The position numbers and the translations under genes were made by a program. From a virus (lineage: Duplodnaviria; Heunggongvirae; Uroviricota; Caudoviricetes): DNA of 10,861 bases. This document shows, piece after piece, positions 2,424 through 7,194 of the stretch (the first letter of the stretch is position 1; every line of letters begins with the position of its first letter). A model generated the notes under the pieces. The model was given only the letters and a program-made list of their open reading frames with translations. It was not told where the DNA came from and searched no databases. The stretch lies in the IMG/VR virus record IMGVR_UViG_2713896896_000006, positions 1-10,861 of that record; one strand, 5' to 3'.

Positions 2424-2918
2424 ATGGATCGAGAGTTAAAAAATCTGACGCTGAATATCAGTCAACTGGCGGCACTGTCAGGTGTACATCGCCAGACTGC
2501 TGCGGCAAGGCTGCAAAATCTACCCGTTGCAGGGGGGCATGAAAGCAACCTCAAGCTTTATCGGGTGGTTGATATTGTGTCGGCATTTCTGGCATTACCA
2601 CCGCCGGTTGCAGAAGGCGAAATGGACGCGCATGAGCGCAAAGCCTGGTATCAGTCTGAACGTGAGCGTCTTAAGTTCGAACAGGAAACGGCACAACTCA
2701 TTCCGGCCAGTGATGTCAGACGGGAGTTTGCCATCTGGGCAAAAGCGGTCGTGCAGGTGCTGGAGACATTACCGGATATTCTGGAACGTGACTGTGGTCT
2801 GCAGCCTGCCGCTGTGAGCCGTGTTCAGTCCATTATTGATGATCTGCGCGATCAGATAGCCCTGCGGGTGACCGAAGCAGGTGCGGATGATGAGGAGGAA
2901 TTACAGCAGGAGGAGTAA
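2424..2918 (+). CDS. Terminase small subunit, lambda Nu1-like
   Basis: N-terminal HTH-like segment (LNISQLAALSGVHRQTAAARL) and acidic C-terminus comparable to Nu1; GGAG Shine-Dalgarno; stop overlaps the large terminase start (TAATG). Confidence 0.75.
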   Translation: MDRELKNLTLNISQLAALSGVHRQTAAARLQNLPVAGGHESNLKLYRVVDIVSAFLALPPPVAEGEMDAHERKAWYQSERERLKFEQETAQLIPASDVRREFAIWAKAVVQVLETLPDILERDCGLQPAAVSRVQSIIDDLRDQIALRVTEAGADDEEELQQEE

Positions 2919-3913
2919 TGCTGAATCAGGAAACCGCAAAGGCAGCACGAACCGATTCAGGTTATATCCTTCGCGCACCGAGACGAATGCGGGTTGCTGA
3001 TGCCGTTGCTCAGTATATGCGGGTGCCCATGGGGGCAGGGAACTCAGTCCCGTGGGATCCGCTGGTGGCACCGTATGTTATTGAGCCGATGAACTGCCTG
3101 GCCTCGCGTGAATACGACGCAGTGATATTTGTTGGCCCGGCACGAACCGGCAAGACTATCGGCCTGATTGACGGCTGGGTGATTTACAACGTGATTTGCG
3201 ATCCTGCGGATATGCTGATCATTCAGATGACGGAGGAAAAAGCCCGCGAACACTCCAAAAAACGACTCGCCAGAACGTTTCGCGTCAGCCCGGAAGTGGT
3301 CAGTCGCCTGAGTCCGAACAAAAATGACAACAACGTTTATGACAGAACATTCCTTGCTGGCAACTACCTGAAAATCGGCTGGCCGTCAGTCAATATCATG
3401 TCCTCATCAGATTATAAATGCGTGGCGCTGACGGATTATGACCGTTTTCCGGAAGATATTGATGGCGAGGGGGATGCTTTCTCTCTTGCCTCAAAACGTA
3501 CCACCACATTTATGTCCAGCGGTATGACGCTGGTGGAGAGTTCCCCCGGCAGGGATGTGAAGGATGTGAAATGGCGACGGACTTCACCGCATGAGGCTCC
3601 ACCAACCACGGGGATACTGTCGCTCTATAACCGTGGCGATCGCCGTCGCTGGTACTGGCCCTGTCCACACTGTGGTGAGTTTTTTCAGCCCTGCGGCGAT
3701 GTGGTTGCTGGTTTCCGTGATATTGCCGATCCCGTGCTGGCAAGTGAGGCGGCTTATATTCAGTGTCCTTCCTGTTCAGGACGGATTATGCCTGAACAAA
3801 AACGTGAGCTGAACGGACGTGGGGTCTGGTTGCGGGATGGTGAATCCATCAATGCGGATGGCAGTCGTTATGGTGATCCCCGACGCTCACGTATTGCGTC
3901 ATTCTGGATGTAG
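2918..3913 (+). pseudogene. Terminase large subunit (lambda gpA family), truncated to the N-terminal 331 aa
   Basis: Walker A-like VGPARTGKT; CPHCGE motif (WYWPCPHCGEFF versus lambda FHVACPHCGEEQ); tracks lambda gpA up to about residue 330 (RIASFWM versus VTFHIWTAY) then hits a stop; the remaining ~300 codons are absent and the integrase gene begins 160 bp later. Confidence 0.8.
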
Positions 3914-4074
3914 GGTACATTTCTTACCTGTTTTTATGTTCTGGTGTCGTTTTGTAGTCTTTTCAATGAGTTGTGATTTTTTGTGTTTCCTCTCTTTACT
4001 TGATAATGAGTTAGTTTATCGCTTGTTATCGACTTGAAAGGACTACATGACGGACTAAAAAATGAGGGCGATAG

Positions 4075-5313
4075 ATGCCGGTAAAGCCATTAACCGTGAC
4101 TGAAGTTAAGGGAATGAAACCACGTGAAAAGGACTATGCCGTTTATGATGGATTCGGTTTATTGCTGAATGTGAGTAAAGCTGGTGGGAAAGTGTGGCGT
4201 TTCCGTTATAGCCATCCGATAACGAAGAAACGGCAGACATACACGATAGGGCGTTTTCCTGAATTCTCACTCGCGGAAGCACGGGAAATACGTGATGAAC
4301 TTCGGCGAATGATTGCACGTGGAGTTGATCCAGTGACAGAGAAGAAAAATCGTAAAATTGAGATGTCACTAAAAAATCTACAAACATTTGAAGCTGTTGC
4401 TAATGCATGGATCGCTTTTAAAAAGGGATCGGAATTGCGGAAACCTACGCTGTATAATATCGAATATGAAGTATACAAATATCTTGTTCCTTTCTTTGGT
4501 AAGTACAGCATAGAGAAAATTACAGCGCCAGTAGCTATTAATGCTCTGGATGCCGTATCCGATAAGAATGCGTTGCAAAAAAAATTAATATCAAGATTAA
4601 ATGAAATTATGAATTACGCTGTAAATTGTGGAGCATTGAAAACGAATCCATTACTTAAGATAAAAACTGCATTCACAGGAAAGAAAAATAAATCATTAGC
4701 TGCACTACCTATTGAAAGATTGCCTGAATTTCTGAGCTGGTGGGATAGTGTGCCTCATAAGTATCAAATAGCTCACAATGCACTTTTATTCCAGATATTG
4801 ACAATGGTCAGGCCAGGTGAGGCGATTAAAGCAGAGTGGTCCGAGATTGATTTTGATTCTGGCTTGTGGATTATCCCCGCGCATAAAATGAAATGCCATC
4901 GTGAACATGTTGTGCCTCTCTCATCACAGGCTATTAGAATCCTAAGAACAATGCAGAAAATAAAAAGAGGGCGTTATATATTTTTTTCCTCCAGAACAAA
5001 AGATGCTCCTATGGGAAAGAATACTATCAATACCCCAATTGCTGCCAGCAAGTTCAAAGGGATTGTAACGTTACACGGTTTTCGTTCGATGTGGAGTACG
5101 CTTTTAAATGAGGAGGGTTTTAACCCTGATGTTATTGAGGCTGCATTAGCACATAAAAGTGGTGATAAAATAAGAGATATTTATAATAGAACTACTTATT
5201 TAGAACAACGCAAAATTATGATGCAATGGGTAGGAGATTTTTTTGATGAGGCGAGAAAAGGGGTAATTAATAGATCCGGTGGTAAGAAAGGTTTGAGAAT
5301 AGTAAATGGTTGA
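4075..5313 (+). CDS. int: Tyrosine recombinase, P4-type integrase
   Basis: N-terminal arm-binding-like domain (KDYAVYDGFGLLLNVSKAGGKVWRFRY...TIGRFPEFSLAEAR) and C-terminal catalytic region (HGFRSMWST...H..R..YNRTTY); GAGGG Shine-Dalgarno. Confidence 0.9.
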   Translation: MPVKPLTVTEVKGMKPREKDYAVYDGFGLLLNVSKAGGKVWRFRYSHPITKKRQTYTIGRFPEFSLAEAREIRDELRRMIARGVDPVTEKKNRKIEMSLKNLQTFEAVANAWIAFKKGSELRKPTLYNIEYEVYKYLVPFFGKYSIEKITAPVAINALDAVSDKNALQKKLISRLNEIMNYAVNCGALKTNPLLKIKTAFTGKKNKSLAALPIERLPEFLSWWDSVPHKYQIAHNALLFQILTMVRPGEAIKAEWSEIDFDSGLWIIPAHKMKCHREHVVPLSSQAIRILRTMQKIKRGRYIFFSSRTKDAPMGKNTINTPIAASKFKGIVTLHGFRSMWSTLLNEEGFNPDVIEAALAHKSGDKIRDIYNRTTYLEQRKIMMQWVGDFFDEARKGVINRSGGKKGLRIVNG

Positions 5314-5325
5314 GGAGTTCAGCAA

Positions 5326-5529
5326 ATGAATACCAATGAAGATATTTTATTTACTAAAGACGTAATGAAAATTTTGCGCTATGGGGCAATGAGCGCATTC
5401 ATCAATTTCTGGAAAGATGAAAATAATGGTTTTCCTCAACCGTTCAGAATTGGGCGGCGGCATACCTGGCACCGTAGAGATGTAGAGGCATGGTTAGATA
5501 AACAACGAGAACAGGCCAATCCCCACTAA
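5326..5529 (+). CDS. alpA: AlpA-family DNA-binding regulator/excisionase-like protein
   Basis: 67 aa, directly downstream of int; AlpA-like HTH with a ...HRRDVEAWLDKQ tail; GAGGAG Shine-Dalgarno. Confidence 0.7.
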   Translation: MNTNEDILFTKDVMKILRYGAMSAFINFWKDENNGFPQPFRIGRRHTWHRRDVEAWLDKQREQANPH

Positions 5530-5587: not shown

Positions 5588-6169
5588 ATGAATAAAAATA
5601 TTGCCGTGACGGGCAAGGGGTACGCTCGTTCAGTAAAAAAATTCTGCGATATTCGTGATCTTGTCGTTCTGCGCTTTGATGGCGTGGATGTTCGTGTGGT
5701 GTATCTGAACGGCGATCCGTGGTTTGTTGCAAAGGATGTTTGTGAAGCTCTGGAAATAAGCAACTCACGCGATGCTCTAAAAGCTCTGGATGTGGATGAG
5801 AAGAATACCGTCGCTTTAAGCTACGGTATTCGCGGAAATCCAAATCATAGCGTCGTTTCTGAATCTGGTTTTTACAAGCTGATCGCCAGAAGTCGCAAAG
5901 CTGTTACTCCTGGCACGTTCGCCCATCGTTTCAGTAACTGGGTATTCAGGAATGTGATACCAGGTATCAGAAAAACGGGGGCTTATGGTATCCCGTGGGG
6001 TGCATTACAGGATTTTTCCCGCCGTAAAGAGCAATATCAAATAAGTGCCAGCGAGAAGGGGAGGGAGCTACAGGCATGTAAGCGCAAAAAGCGTGAGCTG
6101 GAGGAAGAAGAAAAAAGGCTGATACGTGAATATCAGCCTGAGTTTTACTTTGGTGAGCGTATTCAGTAA
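5588..6169 (+). CDS. Bro-N domain protein (antirepressor-like)
   Basis: N-terminal Bro-N signature (FDGVDVRVVYLNGDPWFVAKDVCEALEI...VVSESGFYKLIARSRKA) with a charged, coiled-coil-like C-terminus; GAGGT Shine-Dalgarno. Confidence 0.7.
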   Translation: MNKNIAVTGKGYARSVKKFCDIRDLVVLRFDGVDVRVVYLNGDPWFVAKDVCEALEISNSRDALKALDVDEKNTVALSYGIRGNPNHSVVSESGFYKLIARSRKAVTPGTFAHRFSNWVFRNVIPGIRKTGAYGIPWGALQDFSRRKEQYQISASEKGRELQACKRKKRELEEEEKRLIREYQPEFYFGERIQ

Positions 6170-6344
6170 CCACGCGCATTGCTGATTATACGATACATCG
6201 TGTTAACCGGGAAGCTCCCCACCAGCAAGGCAAAATCTTCTGCTAAAAAATGACATATGAGCAGCCGTCCTGAAAGCATGAAGTTTTGCAGGAATAGATG
6301 CTGCAGTTCTTTATTTTATCAATTGGACTTTAGATAAAAGTAAA

Positions 6345-6380
6345 GGCGACCGAGGTGGTCGCCAGTTTTATTTTTATATT
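6345..6380. terminator. Bidirectional intrinsic terminator between the convergent Bro-N and membrane-protein genes
   Basis: GGCGACC / GAGGT / GGTCGCC flanked by an A-rich run upstream and a T-rich run downstream. Confidence 0.7.
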
Positions 6381-6385
6381 TTTCC

Positions 6386-6829
6386 CTATTGCATCAACAA
6401 TGAATGTCTTATCCACATTACGAGGGATGGAATAATTTTTATGTATCCGCCATATGCCCATATAATGGTGCCAAAAACAGTTAGTCCAACCCCGAGTACT
6501 TCAGCTTTTATTTCCTCTCTGACCTCAACTCGAGCTTTAGCTAAGTTTTCTTCTCGTATCTTTTGTGATTCTTCCGCAGACAATGGCGGGCCAGTTACGC
6601 CACTGCGTGAATTAATTTCAGCTTCGCGATTAGATAATTTTTTTAAAGTTGTGAACTTGATTGTATACAACAATCCAAAAACTGAAATAATTGCACCTGA
6701 GCTGGCGAATAGATTCATATCATTAAGATATTGGCCGAACAAAAAGCTTGCTCCACAAAAAACACATAATATGGCAATGGATGTTTTTGCACCGAGTATT
6801 TTTAGTAATATTGTTCTAAATCTCTTCAT
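6386..6829 (-). CDS. Hypothetical multi-pass membrane protein (147 aa)
   Basis: Three to four hydrophobic helices around a charged central loop (SAEESQKIREENLAKARVEVREEIKAE); AT-rich codon usage; second gene of a minus-strand pair after the ribbon-helix-helix gene. No family recognised. Confidence 0.6.
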   Translation of the reverse strand: MKRFRTILLKILGAKTSIAILCVFCGASFLFGQYLNDMNLFASSGAIISVFGLLYTIKFTTLKKLSNREAEINSRSGVTGPPLSAEESQKIREENLAKARVEVREEIKAEVLGVGLTVFGTIIWAYGGYIKIIPSLVMWIRHSLLMQ

Positions 6830-6860
6830 TGTTAATATATCCTATCATAGAAGTAGTAAT

Positions 6861-7055
6861 TCACCCCTTAGGTTCGATACCGCGCCGCTTTAGTTCGGAG
6901 CGCCCTAACTCTTTAAGCCAGTTAGCAAGGCTTACACCATCATTATTAGCCTCGCTATCAAACTGTTCTTTCAGTTCTGGAGCTATACGCATATGGAAAG
7001 GGGGAGCCTTTCCTGTCCCTTTGGGTTTTTTATCGCGTTTAATTATTGTTGACAT
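6861..7055 (-). CDS. Ribbon-helix-helix (Arc/CopG-like) DNA-binding protein, candidate island repressor
   Basis: Basic N-tail then a beta-strand/helix pattern (FHMRIAPELKEQFDSEANNDGVSLANWLKEL) typical of RHH proteins; AGGTG Shine-Dalgarno; start codon lies inside the palindromic operator region. Confidence 0.6.
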   Translation of the reverse strand: MSTIIKRDKKPKGTGKAPPFHMRIAPELKEQFDSEANNDGVSLANWLKELGRSELKRRGIEPKG

Positions 7056-7113
7056 GTGTACACCTATGGCGTTATGTTTTCATTCGATAGGTGTACACAT
7101 TAACACGTGTGCA
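7049..7113 (+). promoter_or_regulatory. Divergent switch region: rightward sigma70-like promoter overlapped by palindromic operators
   Basis: -35 TTGACA at 7049-7054, 18-bp spacer, -10-like TATGTT; self-complementary GTGTACAC at 7056-7063 and 7091-7098 (12-bp perfect inverted arms 19 bp apart) and ACACGTGT at 7103-7110. Confidence 0.55.
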
Positions 7114-7194
7114 TTTAATAACGCAACGCCCCGCAGTGCTGGAACACATGCAGGGCGTCTAACCACCAACGATAGCAACAGTATCGAGGTAGCT

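What the first reader, a model, noticed from the sequence alone, without database searches (positions are those of the whole stretch)
7049..7113. Palindrome-rich operator overlapping a TTGACA promoter at the divergent switch
Two copies of the self-complementary octamer GTGTACAC (within 12-bp perfect inverted arms 19 bp apart) plus ACACGTGT sit on the -35/-10 spacer and predicted start of the rightward promoter and on the start of the leftward RHH gene. This looks like the lysogeny-type control point deciding replication of the element, where a helper-encoded inducer would act.
Basis: seen in the sequence. Interest (0 to 1): 0.5.

Follow-up and report, generated by a model that had tools for sequence, protein, structure and literature searches.

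The report
Repressor operator of a phage satellite
The palindromes are real and are most likely the two binding sites of a small Arc-like repressor that shuts off the promoter driving replication genes of a phage satellite (PICI) embedded in a prophage, and the same control cassette, with a SymR-like antisense RNA, also controls the SymE toxin gene in other bacteria.

Summary
The arms are a perfect 14-nt inverted repeat (7054-7067 / 7087-7100, 19 nt apart), the longest in the window, and 0 of 2000 shuffles reach it. They bracket the -10 of a promoter, TTGACA-N18-TATGTT.

Comparison of 75 related loci shows what it is. The -35 is kept in 66 of 72 unique loci and a TAnnnT -10 in 59 of 72. Both arms follow a half-site GT-NNNN-ACCTAT. 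Its central four bases track residue 21 of the beta-strand of the divergently encoded 64-aa ribbon-helix-helix (RHH) protein, not overall divergence. This points to two operators of an Arc-like repressor that occlude the rightward promoter and probably a leftward autoregulated one.

The rightward operon (Icd-like gene to replicase) belongs to a helper-embedded PICI satellite. Just outside the given coordinates lies a second control layer: a diverged SymR-like antisense RNA (about 7194 to 7116, minus strand).

ACACGTGT is not conserved beyond close relatives. The "HicB antitoxin" label that NCBI gives some homologues is not supported. Nothing supports a helper-encoded inducer acting at this site. 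No binding or transcription was measured.

Verdict: a new, uncharacterised member of a textbook kind of switch, and a candidate for the unidentified repressor of Gram-negative PICIs.

The parts
6861..7055 (-). Gene for a 64-aa Arc-like ribbon-helix-helix protein, the candidate repressor. Its beta-strand is roughly residues 19-25 (PFHMRIA).
   Evidence: ORF. PHROG 228 'Arc-like repressor', E 9e-6. AlphaFold2 model pLDDT 79 with helices 26-38 and 43-57; Foldseek top hits are P22 Arc and other RHH proteins. The N-terminal 21 residues are conserved in 25 homologues, so the long start is the real one.
7049..7054 (+). -35 hexamer TTGACA of the rightward promoter P_R. It is encoded by RHH codons 1-3 (Met-Ser-Thr).
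   Evidence: TTGACA is kept in 66 of 72 unique related loci.
7054..7067 (.). Operator O1 (ATGTGTACACCTAT). It lies in the P_R spacer and also holds the RHH Shine-Dalgarno sequence (AGGTG on the minus strand) and start codon.
7073..7078 (+). -10 hexamer TATGTT of P_R. The predicted start of transcription is about 7085.
   Evidence: TAnnnT at 17-18 nt spacing in 59 of 72 unique loci. The start site is inferred.
7087..7100 (.). Operator O2 (ATAGGTGTACACAT). It covers the predicted start sites of both P_R and P_L.
7097..7126 (-). Candidate leftward promoter P_L for the RHH gene: -35 TTGCGT (7126-7121), 18 nt, -10 TAATGT (7102-7097). Predicted start about 7090.
   Evidence: The same geometry (TTGnnn, usually 18 nt (16-19), TA[AG][TG]GT overlapping the outer 2 nt of O2) is seen in about two dozen long-leader loci, with weaker -35 matches in a few. 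It is absent in the SymE-type loci. It falls below the threshold of the consensus scan. Weak, inferred.
7103..7118 (.). ACACGTGT (7103-7110) and a degenerate third half-site GTGTGCATTTAAT (7106-7118).
   Evidence: The core does not track the repressor class outside the PFHM class. Significance doubtful.
7116..7194 (-). Predicted SymR-like cis-antisense RNA of about 75-80 nt. Start at 7194, 5' hairpin 7195-7160, terminator hairpin 7159-7125, U-rich tail 7124-7116. It is antisense to the leader, Shine-Dalgarno sequence and start codon of the icd-like gene.
   Evidence: Rfam symR scores 21.7 bits, below the gathering score of 61. Its homologue SymR is experimentally characterised in K-12 (PMC1891008).
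7202..7210 (-). Extended -10 (TGG TATGAT) of the antisense-RNA promoter, inside codons 3-5 of the icd-like gene.
   Evidence: TAnnnT is invariant in 46 of 46 aligned diverse loci, although one of its bases is a synonymous third codon position. The homologous -10 in K-12 symR was shown by mutation to drive SymR (PMC1891008).
7195..7401 (+). First gene of the rightward operon, an Icd-like protein of 68 aa.
   Evidence: NCBIfam NF033153, 71 bits against a cut-off of 25. PHROG 6196.
7391..9759 (+). Rest of the early and replication operon: overlapping small ORFs, DUF4222 (8006-8347) and an AAA_25 replicase (8344-9759).
6386..6829 (-). Variable cargo gene downstream of the RHH gene (147-aa membrane protein, function unknown).

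Best explanation
The interval 7049-7113 is the core of a two-way transcriptional switch of a phage satellite (a Gram-negative PICI embedded in a prophage terminase gene). A near-consensus promoter P_R (TTGACA-N18-TATGTT) fires rightward into the Icd-like-to-replicase operon. Two operator sites bracket its -10 element: O1 in the spacer and O2 over the start site. The 64-aa Arc-like RHH protein encoded leftward from the same region binds both operators through its N-terminal beta-strand, probably as dimers of dimers. This occludes P_R and keeps the replication operon silent. Because O2 also covers the predicted -10 and start of the weak leftward promoter P_L, and O1 covers the repressor's own ribosome-binding site, the repressor probably limits its own synthesis and that of the cargo gene behind it. 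A second layer acts on any transcript that escapes: a SymR-like antisense RNA, made from a promoter inside the first codons of the icd-like gene, pairs with the leader, Shine-Dalgarno sequence and start codon. Shown by computation: the sequence features, their conservation, the co-variation of operator core with repressor residue 21, the RHH fold, and the strand-specific RNA structure and its homology to SymR. Inferred: actual binding, repression, autoregulation, start sites, stoichiometry, and how repression is lifted. The most likely route for lifting it is terminator-resistant rightward transcription from the int-alpA side or from the helper's late operon, which would run over the repressor gene.
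For: 1. Not chance: a 14-nt perfect inverted repeat, with 0 of 2000 shuffles reaching it.
2. Promoter conservation: TTGACA in 66 of 72 unique loci and TAnnnT at 17-18 nt in 59 of 72 across Enterobacterales, while the spacer sequence itself is only 30-50% identical.
3. Both arms keep a class-specific core: PFHM goes with GTGTACAC, A/TFQ with GT[GA]TGTAC or GTACGTAC, M/LFN with GTATAGAC, IFS with GTATGGAC, QFK with G[TAG]GGCCAC, and QFR (E. coli O157:H7) with GTGGTCAC.
4. At matched protein divergence, locus pairs with the same residue 21 share 90-100% of the 4+4 core bases. Pairs with a different residue 21 share 22-45%. For example, L003 is 81% identical to the window protein outside the motif yet has a different core, while L025 is only 60% identical and keeps GTGTACAC.
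5. The sites co-occur with the RHH gene whatever lies downstream (SymE toxin, Icd-like or a 176-aa protein) and whether or not satellite genes are present. K-12 symE has no RHH gene and carries a LexA box at the place of O2.
6. Each arm has its own dyad symmetry (GTGTACAC, GGCC, GTACGTAC), as expected for a symmetric protein.
7. The fold is RHH, closest to Arc.
8. EcCICFT073 has the same layout, with repeats in the spacer and over the start of TTGACG-N18-TATAGT.
Against: There is no experimental binding or expression data. Co-variation is comparative, and the QFKM class dominates the pair counts. Pfam and NCBIfam hits for the protein are below their cut-offs. The beta-strand is not formed in the monomer model. 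The leftward promoter is weak, is not found by the consensus scan, and is absent in SymE-type loci. The distance between O1 and O2 varies from 31 to 35 bp, so there is no strict helical phasing. In EcCICFT073, AlpA alone switches the element on (PMC6092414), so a repressor of this kind, if present there, is not the sole gatekeeper.
Confidence: 0.78

Rival explanations
1. The inverted repeat works as RNA or as a DNA cruciform. In this reading a 14-bp hairpin in the leader of the RHH mRNA sequesters its Shine-Dalgarno sequence and start codon, or acts as a terminator or attenuator, and it is not a protein-binding site.
For: Arm 1 does contain the RHH Shine-Dalgarno sequence and AUG. If leftward transcripts read through from the antisense-RNA promoter at 7202-7207, both arms would be transcribed. 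Concerted change of both arms is also what a hairpin predicts.
Against: In the largest class the two copies differ at the same two positions in about 30 loci (GAGGCCACCTAT against GTGGCCTCCTAT) with no compensation, so they behave as direct as much as inverted repeats. In EcCICFT073 the repeats are purely direct. Within a class the sequence, not merely the pairing, is conserved, and no G-U variation is seen. Each arm is internally palindromic. No U-tract follows the arms. The predicted starts of P_R and P_L both lie at or within O2, so each transcript would carry only one full arm. The core tracks a protein residue.
Confidence: 0.07
2. The RHH protein is the antitoxin of a type II toxin-antitoxin pair, as in the 'HicB family antitoxin' name that NCBI gives some homologues. 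The palindromes are then its autoregulatory operator and have no role in controlling the satellite.
For: NCBI names several homologues HicB family antitoxin. There is a weak Pfam HicB hit of 18 bits. RHH antitoxins typically autoregulate through palindromes, and a gene follows the RHH gene in the window.
Against: The HicB hit is below its cut-off of 21 bits and covers only the RHH part. The protein is 64 aa and has no HicB N-terminal domain. There is no HicA. The downstream gene is absent in many loci and otherwise belongs to dozens of unrelated families, several of them defence proteins. The sites sit on the core elements of the divergent promoter, which is conserved.
Confidence: 0.05
3. The sites are bound by another factor, such as AlpA, the Icd-like protein (which PHROG labels a 'transcriptional repressor'), a helper-phage protein or a host regulator, rather than by the RHH protein.
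For: PHROG 6196 and 1743 label Icd-like proteins as repressors. AlpA activates PICI genes in EcCICFT073.
Against: The SymE-type loci have neither alpA nor icd-like genes yet keep the sites and the RHH gene. The core co-varies with RHH residue 21. A host factor would not explain six or more specificity classes within one bacterial order.
Confidence: 0.05
4. The palindromes are a chance or compositional feature of an AT-rich intergenic region.
For: ACACGTGT alone is compatible with chance. One-mismatch GTGTACAC matches are at the chance level.
Against: 0 of 2000 shuffles reach 14 nt. Position and class-specific conservation hold across 70 or more loci.
Confidence: 0.01

Closest known systems
P22 immI region: Arc and Mnt (RHH repressors) with the overlapping divergent promoters Pant and Pmnt
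   Same: A small RHH repressor whose beta-sheet reads a short operator with dyad symmetry placed on core promoter elements. The promoters are divergent and overlapping, and the repressor gene sits at the switch. Arc is the best structural match to the model and the best-aligned PDB sequence.
   Different: Sequence similarity is marginal (PDB E-value 1.2). Here there are two separated sites flanking the -10 rather than one 21-bp operator. A 17-residue basic N-terminal arm is present. The controlled operon is a satellite's replication module. No Mnt-like second repressor was seen.
SymE/SymR type I toxin-antitoxin locus of E. coli K-12 (Kawano, Aravind and Storz 2007, PMC1891008)
   Same: The leader, the antisense RNA and its promoter inside the first codons of the target gene are homologous (alignment A3; Rfam symR is the best hit). 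In many related loci the gene downstream of this same cassette is SymE itself (Pfam PF08845, E 2.4e-16).
   Different: In K-12, transcription is repressed by LexA through an SOS box, and there is no RHH gene. In the window the target is an Icd-like gene heading a replication operon, not SymE. The RNA scores far below the Rfam gathering score.
SaPI and Gram-positive PICI Stl/Rpr master-repressor switch (stl and str divergent genes)
   Same: The position and logic match: a repressor gene transcribed leftward, and the excision and replication operon transcribed rightward from an overlapping control region of a phage satellite (as described in PMC6092414).
   Different: Stl proteins are larger helix-turn-helix proteins that are inactivated by binding helper-phage proteins (from knowledge of the field; not tested here). 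Here the protein is a 64-aa RHH, and no anti-repressor is known. In Gram-negative PICIs the known inducer is AlpA.
EcCICFT073, the model Gram-negative PICI, and the HE-PICIs of Tommasini, Mageeney and Williams 2023 (PMC10111431)
   Same: The element architecture is the same: int, alpA, a variable Bro zone, leftward small genes, then icd-like, DUF4222, primase, SSB and late genes. The leader and antisense RNA are almost identical to those of EcCICFT073. The window element sits inside a prophage terminase gene, as HE-PICIs do.
   Different: In EcCICFT073 the divergent regulator is a 59-aa YlcI/YnfO-family protein. Its gene does not overlap the -35, and the repeats are direct (GTGGGCCACACCT twice). 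Neither paper describes this repressor or operator. [quoted passage not shown]
P1 c4-icd-ant and P4 CI immunity RNAs
   Same: An Icd-type first gene whose translation start is masked by a small RNA, which would shut off the operon behind it.
   Different: C4 and CI are processed from the sense transcript and act on nearby sites. Here the RNA is a true cis-antisense transcript. No Rfam C4 or isrK match was found in the window.

Membership tests
Arc/MetJ ribbon-helix-helix repressors | Beta-alpha-alpha fold of about 45 residues | tested here: met
   The AlphaFold2 model has two helices (26-38, 43-57) after an extended N-terminal segment, with pLDDT above 90 over residues 31-60. The Foldseek PDB hits are dominated by Arc, CopG, NikA, AmrZ, ParG and PutA. 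PHROG 228 'Arc-like repressor' matches at E 9e-6. Caveats: E-values are weak because the domain is small, and the strand is not formed in a monomer model.
Arc/MetJ ribbon-helix-helix repressors | Score above a curated family threshold | tested here: not met
   Pfam HicB (the RHH part) scores 18 bits against a cut-off of 21. NCBIfam TraJ scores 17 bits against 134.
Arc/MetJ ribbon-helix-helix repressors | N-terminal beta-strand residues read the operator bases | tested here: met
   The strand xFxhR aligns to Arc QFNLR. R23 is invariant and residues 19 and 21 vary. The operator core tracks residue 21 at matched divergence. This is comparative evidence only.
Arc/MetJ ribbon-helix-helix repressors | Physical binding to the operator and repression | not testable with these tools
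   Needs gel-shift or footprinting assays and reporter assays.
HicB antitoxin (type II toxin-antitoxin) | N-terminal HicB-fold domain that neutralises HicA | tested here: not met
   The protein is 64 aa. Only residues 20-48 match the C-terminal RHH part of the Pfam model.
HicB antitoxin (type II toxin-antitoxin) | Adjacent conserved HicA toxin gene | tested here: not met
   The downstream gene has no HicA match. Across loci it is absent or belongs to unrelated families.
SymR antisense RNA (Rfam RF01809) | Covariance-model score at or above the gathering score (61 bits) | tested here: not met
   21.7 bits in the window and 26 bits in L021. No hit at the gathering threshold in 11 loci.
SymR antisense RNA (Rfam RF01809) | Cis-antisense to the 5' end of the target gene, with its promoter inside the first codons of that gene | tested here: met
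   The TAnnnT -10 is invariant in 46 of 46 loci and places the start at the target's start codon. This is the same geometry as in K-12.
SymR antisense RNA (Rfam RF01809) | Two-hairpin structure on the antisense strand | tested here: met
   The antisense strand folds more stably than the sense strand in 66 of 66 loci. The window z-score is -5.6 for the antisense strand and -2.2 for the sense strand. 96% of cells are paired against 30-53% in slid controls, with many G-U pairs valid only on this strand.
SymR antisense RNA (Rfam RF01809) | The target is a SymE toxin | tested here: not met
   The window target is Icd-like. Related loci do have SymE.
Gram-negative PICI / helper-embedded PICI | int and alpA co-oriented at one end, a Bro zone, a replication zone with ori, and insertion in a prophage late gene | tested here: met
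   int 4075-5313, alpA-like 5326-5529, Bro-N 5588-6169, replicase 8344-9759, iterons 9757-9951, SSB 10209-10631. The terminase large-subunit gene is truncated at 3913. An almost identical element is seen in NZ_CP031653. The late zone lies beyond the window.
SaPI Stl-type master repressor | Helix-turn-helix repressor inactivated by a helper-phage protein | tested here: not met
   The fold is RHH, not HTH. Inactivation by a helper protein cannot be tested here.
C4 / CI / IsrK immunity RNAs | Match to Rfam C4 or isrK | tested here: not met
   No match at E up to 1 in the whole window, nor at E up to 10 in 7040-7420.

The most novel reading that the evidence does not exclude
The 64-aa RHH protein is the unidentified master repressor of a subset of Gram-negative PICIs, a functional counterpart of SaPI Stl. 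It comes in at least six operator-specificity ('immunity') classes set largely by one beta-strand residue. It forms part of a portable control cassette: repressor, O1-P_R-O2, leader, SymR-like RNA and the first eight or so codons. Recombination has placed this cassette in front of unrelated effectors, namely the SymE toxin in chromosomal islets and Icd-like or replication operons in satellites, with the RHH protein taking the role that LexA plays at K-12 symE. The repressor's own operon doubles as the expression platform for a hypervariable defence-gene slot.
Probability: 0.4. Interest if true: 0.7.

Novelty: new member of a known kind. Interest (0 to 1): 0.5.

Why it matters
For Gram-negative PICIs the published position is that a global repressor has not been identified and that AlpA is an activator (PMC6092414). 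A conserved repressor-operator pair sitting on the promoter of the replication operon gives a concrete, easily tested candidate for what keeps these satellites silent. The residue-to-base correspondence offers a ready design for specificity-swap experiments. The link to symE/symR shows that a chromosomal type I toxin-antitoxin control region and a satellite's early control region are the same mobile cassette. It also shows that current annotation hides this: some homologues are labelled 'HicB antitoxin', and in O157:H7 the gene is not called at all. If the gene slot behind the repressor is expressed from the repressor's promoter, that would explain how satellites express defence cargo while quiescent.

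Tried and rejected
- Rfam on the whole window and on 7040-7420: no C4, isrK or other family reached its threshold. Only sub-threshold symR and R1162-antisense hits appeared. SymR also failed the gathering score in 11 loci.
- A consensus scan for a leftward promoter between O2 and the RHH gene found nothing, and there is no positionally conserved minus-strand TAnnnT across all loci. A weak candidate emerged only after anchoring on O2, and only in long-leader loci.
- tblastn of the window's other proteins against the 75 loci: the neighbours are mostly not conserved, so the gene-context argument had to rest on the cassette alone.
- Toxin-antitoxin reading: rejected.
- RNA-hairpin reading of the arms: rejected as the main explanation.
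- ACACGTGT as a third operator: not conserved and at the chance level. A degenerate third half-site remains doubtful.
- Megablast with the short RHH and operator query found only 10 genomes. The sensitive mode found 283 of 5426. The earlier figure of 1377 genomes came mostly from the icd side.
- Literature searches for an RHH repressor, operator or antisense RNA of Icd-like genes in PICIs returned nothing relevant. This covers only the open-access library searched.

Full report
**1. The observation.**
The interval reads TTGACA TGTGTACACCTAT GGCGT TATGTT TTCATTCG ATAGGTGTACACAT TAACACGTGTGCA. GTGTACAC occurs exactly twice in the window, at 7056-7063 and 7091-7098. The two copies lie inside perfect inverted arms of 14 nt, not 12: 7054-7067 and 7087-7100, with 19 nt between them. 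This is the longest perfect inverted repeat in the 10.9-kb window, and none of 2000 dinucleotide shuffles of either of two surrounding segments reaches it.

The promoter scan finds TTGACA (7049-7054), 18 nt, TATGTT (7073-7078), matching 10 of 12 positions. The leftward 64-aa ORF starts at 7055, so its ATG overlaps the -35 hexamer. ACACGTGT is present once (7103-7110) and is compatible with chance.

**2. The setting.**
The window is a satellite inserted into the terminase large-subunit gene of a lambdoid prophage.
- Prophage side: lysozyme and spanin, terminase small subunit, and a terminase large-subunit gene truncated at 3913.
- Satellite, rightward genes: integrase (4075-5313), an AlpA-like HTH protein (5326-5529) and a Bro-N protein (5588-6169).
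- Satellite, leftward genes: a 147-aa membrane protein and the 64-aa RHH protein.
- Satellite, rightward again: an Icd-like gene (7195-7401; NCBIfam NF033153, 71 bits), overlapping small ORFs, DUF4222, an AAA_25 replicase (8344-9759), iterons (9757-9951) and SSB.

A near-identical element in E. coli NZ_CP031653 shows the same insertion.

This is the helper-embedded PICI configuration described by Tommasini, Mageeney and Williams 2023 (PMC10111431). That paper does not mention the RHH gene or its operator. Fillol-Salom et al. 2018 (PMC6092414) state that a global repressor of Gram-negative PICIs is unclear and that AlpA is an activator.

**3. The protein.**
It matches PHROG 228 'Arc-like repressor' (E 9e-6). 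Its Pfam HicB hit is below cut-off and covers only the RHH part. The AlphaFold2 model has two helices after an extended N-terminus, and its best structural matches are P22 Arc and other RHH proteins. Twenty-five homologues conserve the whole N-terminus. R23 is invariant, and beta-strand positions 19, 21 and 22 vary.

**4. Comparative test of the operator.**
A scan of one genome per species returned 75 loci across Enterobacterales. After orienting on the RHH start codon:
- TTGACA is kept in 66 of 72 unique loci, and a TAnnnT hexamer sits 17-18 nt downstream in 59 of 72.
- In nearly every locus two copies of a 12-nt element flank that -10, at fixed positions. The consensus is GT-NNNN-ACCTAT.
- The central bases fall into classes that match the beta-strand motif: PFHM with GTGTACAC, A/TFQ with GT[GA]TGTAC or GTACGTAC, M/LFN with GTATAGAC, IFS with GTATGGAC, QFK with G[TAG]GGCCAC, and QFR in E. 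coli O157:H7 with GTGGTCAC.

To separate recognition from simple co-inheritance I compared all locus pairs at matched protein divergence outside the motif. Pairs with the same residue 21 share 90-100% of the eight core bases. Pairs with a different residue 21 share 22-45%. The spacer between the arms is 30-50% identical in both groups. Concretely, L003 is 81% identical to the window protein but has a different core, while L025 is 60% identical and keeps GTGTACAC.

The sites accompany the RHH gene whatever the downstream gene is, and whether or not alpA, integrase or replicase genes are nearby. Together these results assign the sites to the RHH protein and make P_R the repressed promoter. Binding itself was not measured.

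**5. Geometry of the switch.**
O1 fills the P_R spacer and contains the repressor's own Shine-Dalgarno sequence and start codon. O2 covers the predicted P_R start, near 7085.

A candidate leftward promoter reads TTGCGT (7126-7121), 18 nt, TAATGT (7102-7097). The same geometry recurs in about two dozen loci of the long-leader type, with weaker -35 matches in a few. It is weak, it is missed by the consensus scan, and it is absent in the SymE-type loci. If it is real, P_R and P_L face each other with starts about 5 bp apart, and O2 represses both. I treat autoregulation as inferred.

**6. A second layer just outside the coordinates.**
The leader of the rightward operon holds a hairpin that is conserved with compensatory changes. 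Several results point to a leftward RNA:
- The leftward strand folds more stably than the rightward strand in 66 of 66 unique loci, with mean energies of -29.4 and -19.4 kcal/mol.
- In the window the z-scores are -5.6 for the leftward strand and -2.2 for the rightward strand.
- On an alignment of 46 diverse loci, 96% of cells pair, against 30-53% for slid controls. Many G-U pairs are possible only on the leftward strand.
- A TAnnnT hexamer is invariant in 46 of 46 loci. In the window it is TGG-TATGAT at 7210-7202. It lies inside codons 3-5 of the first rightward gene and includes a synonymous third codon position.
- That hexamer predicts a start at 7194. The terminator hairpin is at 7159-7125, followed by a U-rich tail.

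Rfam's best hit is SymR, at 21.7 bits in the window and 26 bits in L021, well below the gathering score of 61. Direct alignment with K-12 symR nevertheless shows homology. In the largest group of related loci the gene behind the cassette is SymE itself (PF08845, E 2.4e-16).

In K-12 the symR -10 lies inside symE, and mutating it abolished SymR (PMC1891008). K-12 symE has a LexA box where O2 sits and has no RHH gene.

The cassette is therefore shared between type I toxin loci and satellites. It is fused to at least three unrelated downstream gene families.

**7. The model PICI.**
EcCICFT073 has the same layout. Its divergent gene encodes a 59-aa YlcI/YnfO-family protein. Its promoter is TTGACG-N18-TATAGT, with two direct GTGGGCCACACCT repeats in the spacer and over the start site. 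Its leader and antisense region are almost identical to the window's.

**8. Rivals.**
- RNA or cruciform hairpin. The major class keeps two uncompensated differences between the copies. EcCICFT073 uses direct repeats. The arms are internally palindromic, no U-tract follows them, and the predicted start sites separate the arms.
- HicB-type antitoxin. There is no HicB N-terminal domain and no HicA gene. The downstream slot is empty or holds unrelated proteins, including TIR, PDC-S19, KwaA and metallophosphatase defence candidates.
- Another binding protein, or chance. Both are excluded by the co-variation and the shuffles.

**9. How repression is lifted (inferred).**
In EcCICFT073, AlpA over-expression alone induces excision and replication, and helper phages induce alpA. 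For embedded satellites, helper late transcription should propagate into the element.

In the window all upstream genes, from lysis through the terminase genes to int, alpA and Bro-N, point rightward. They are separated from the leftward genes only by a bidirectional terminator at 6345-6363. Terminator-resistant transcription, modified either by the helper's Q protein or by AlpA, would cross the cargo and RHH genes in antisense and enter the icd-to-replicase operon. That would bypass the operator and silence the repressor. Nothing here supports a helper protein acting directly on the operator, and nothing excludes it.

**10. Verdict.**
The reading as an operator on a promoter is well supported by comparison. 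The 'helper-encoded inducer' part is not supported. As a mechanism it is a textbook repressor-operator switch, so I file it as a new member of a known kind. Its value lies in naming a testable candidate repressor for Gram-negative PICIs, in the clear residue-to-base correspondence, and in the unrecognised kinship with symE/symR. About 5% of complete E. coli genomes (283 of 5426) carry a homologue of the RHH gene with its sites. In O157:H7 the gene is not annotated.

Noticed in passing
window 2918-4075: The satellite is inserted in the terminase large-subunit gene of a lambdoid prophage. The ORF is truncated at 3913 and the integrase gene starts at 4075. This is the helper-embedded PICI configuration of PMC10111431.
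   Followed up: partly
window 7116-7210 (minus strand): A predicted SymR-like cis-antisense RNA with its own invariant -10 inside the icd-like gene. It scores below the Rfam gathering score, so annotation pipelines would miss it.
   Followed up: yes
L016-L063 and others (about 40 loci; example L021 5537-6195): The same RHH, operator and leader cassette sits in front of a SymE toxin gene next to tRNA-Sec (selC) in Klebsiella, Enterobacter, Kluyvera and others. Across all loci the cassette is fused to at least three unrelated first genes: SymE, Icd-like and a 176-aa protein.
   Followed up: partly
window 6386-6829 (minus strand) and the equivalent slot in L010, L020-L026, L036, L053, L062: The slot just downstream of the RHH gene is hypervariable and often holds defence candidates (TIR/ThsB-like, PDC-S19, KwaA, a metallophosphatase effector). 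The window's 147-aa membrane protein matches nothing in Pfam, PHROGs, NCBIfam or PADLOC.
   Followed up: partly
L082 5554-6297 (E. coli O157:H7 NE 1169-1): RefSeq annotates a 247-aa ORF on the strand opposite the intact but unannotated RHH gene (6188..5997, TTG start). A similar long spurious ORF runs through window 6829-7401 on the plus strand.
   Followed up: partly
window 9757-9951: An iteron array directly after the replicase gene: six direct copies of AAAAGTGGGGA plus an inverted copy, with a 26-nt unit repeated 168 bp apart. This is probably the satellite's origin of replication.
   Followed up: partly
window 6345-6363: A bidirectional intrinsic terminator (GGCGACC..GGTCGCC with T-runs on both strands) lies between the convergent Bro-N gene and the cargo gene. 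The weak Rfam MicX hit at 6332-6554 is explained by this hairpin.
   Followed up: partly
L080 10474-10653 (EcCICFT073): In the model PICI the gene at the repressor position is a 59-aa YlcI/YnfO-family protein. By eye its sequence (…ARVPHEIVNAMESVK…) looks RHH-like. It was not in the original CFT073 annotation and I did not find it discussed in PMC6092414.
   Followed up: no
window 5588-6169: The Bro-N protein matches phage 'anti-repressor' families strongly (PHROG 2593, E 4e-83) and sits in the alpA operon. It could act on the RHH repressor or on the helper's repressor. This was not tested.
   Followed up: no
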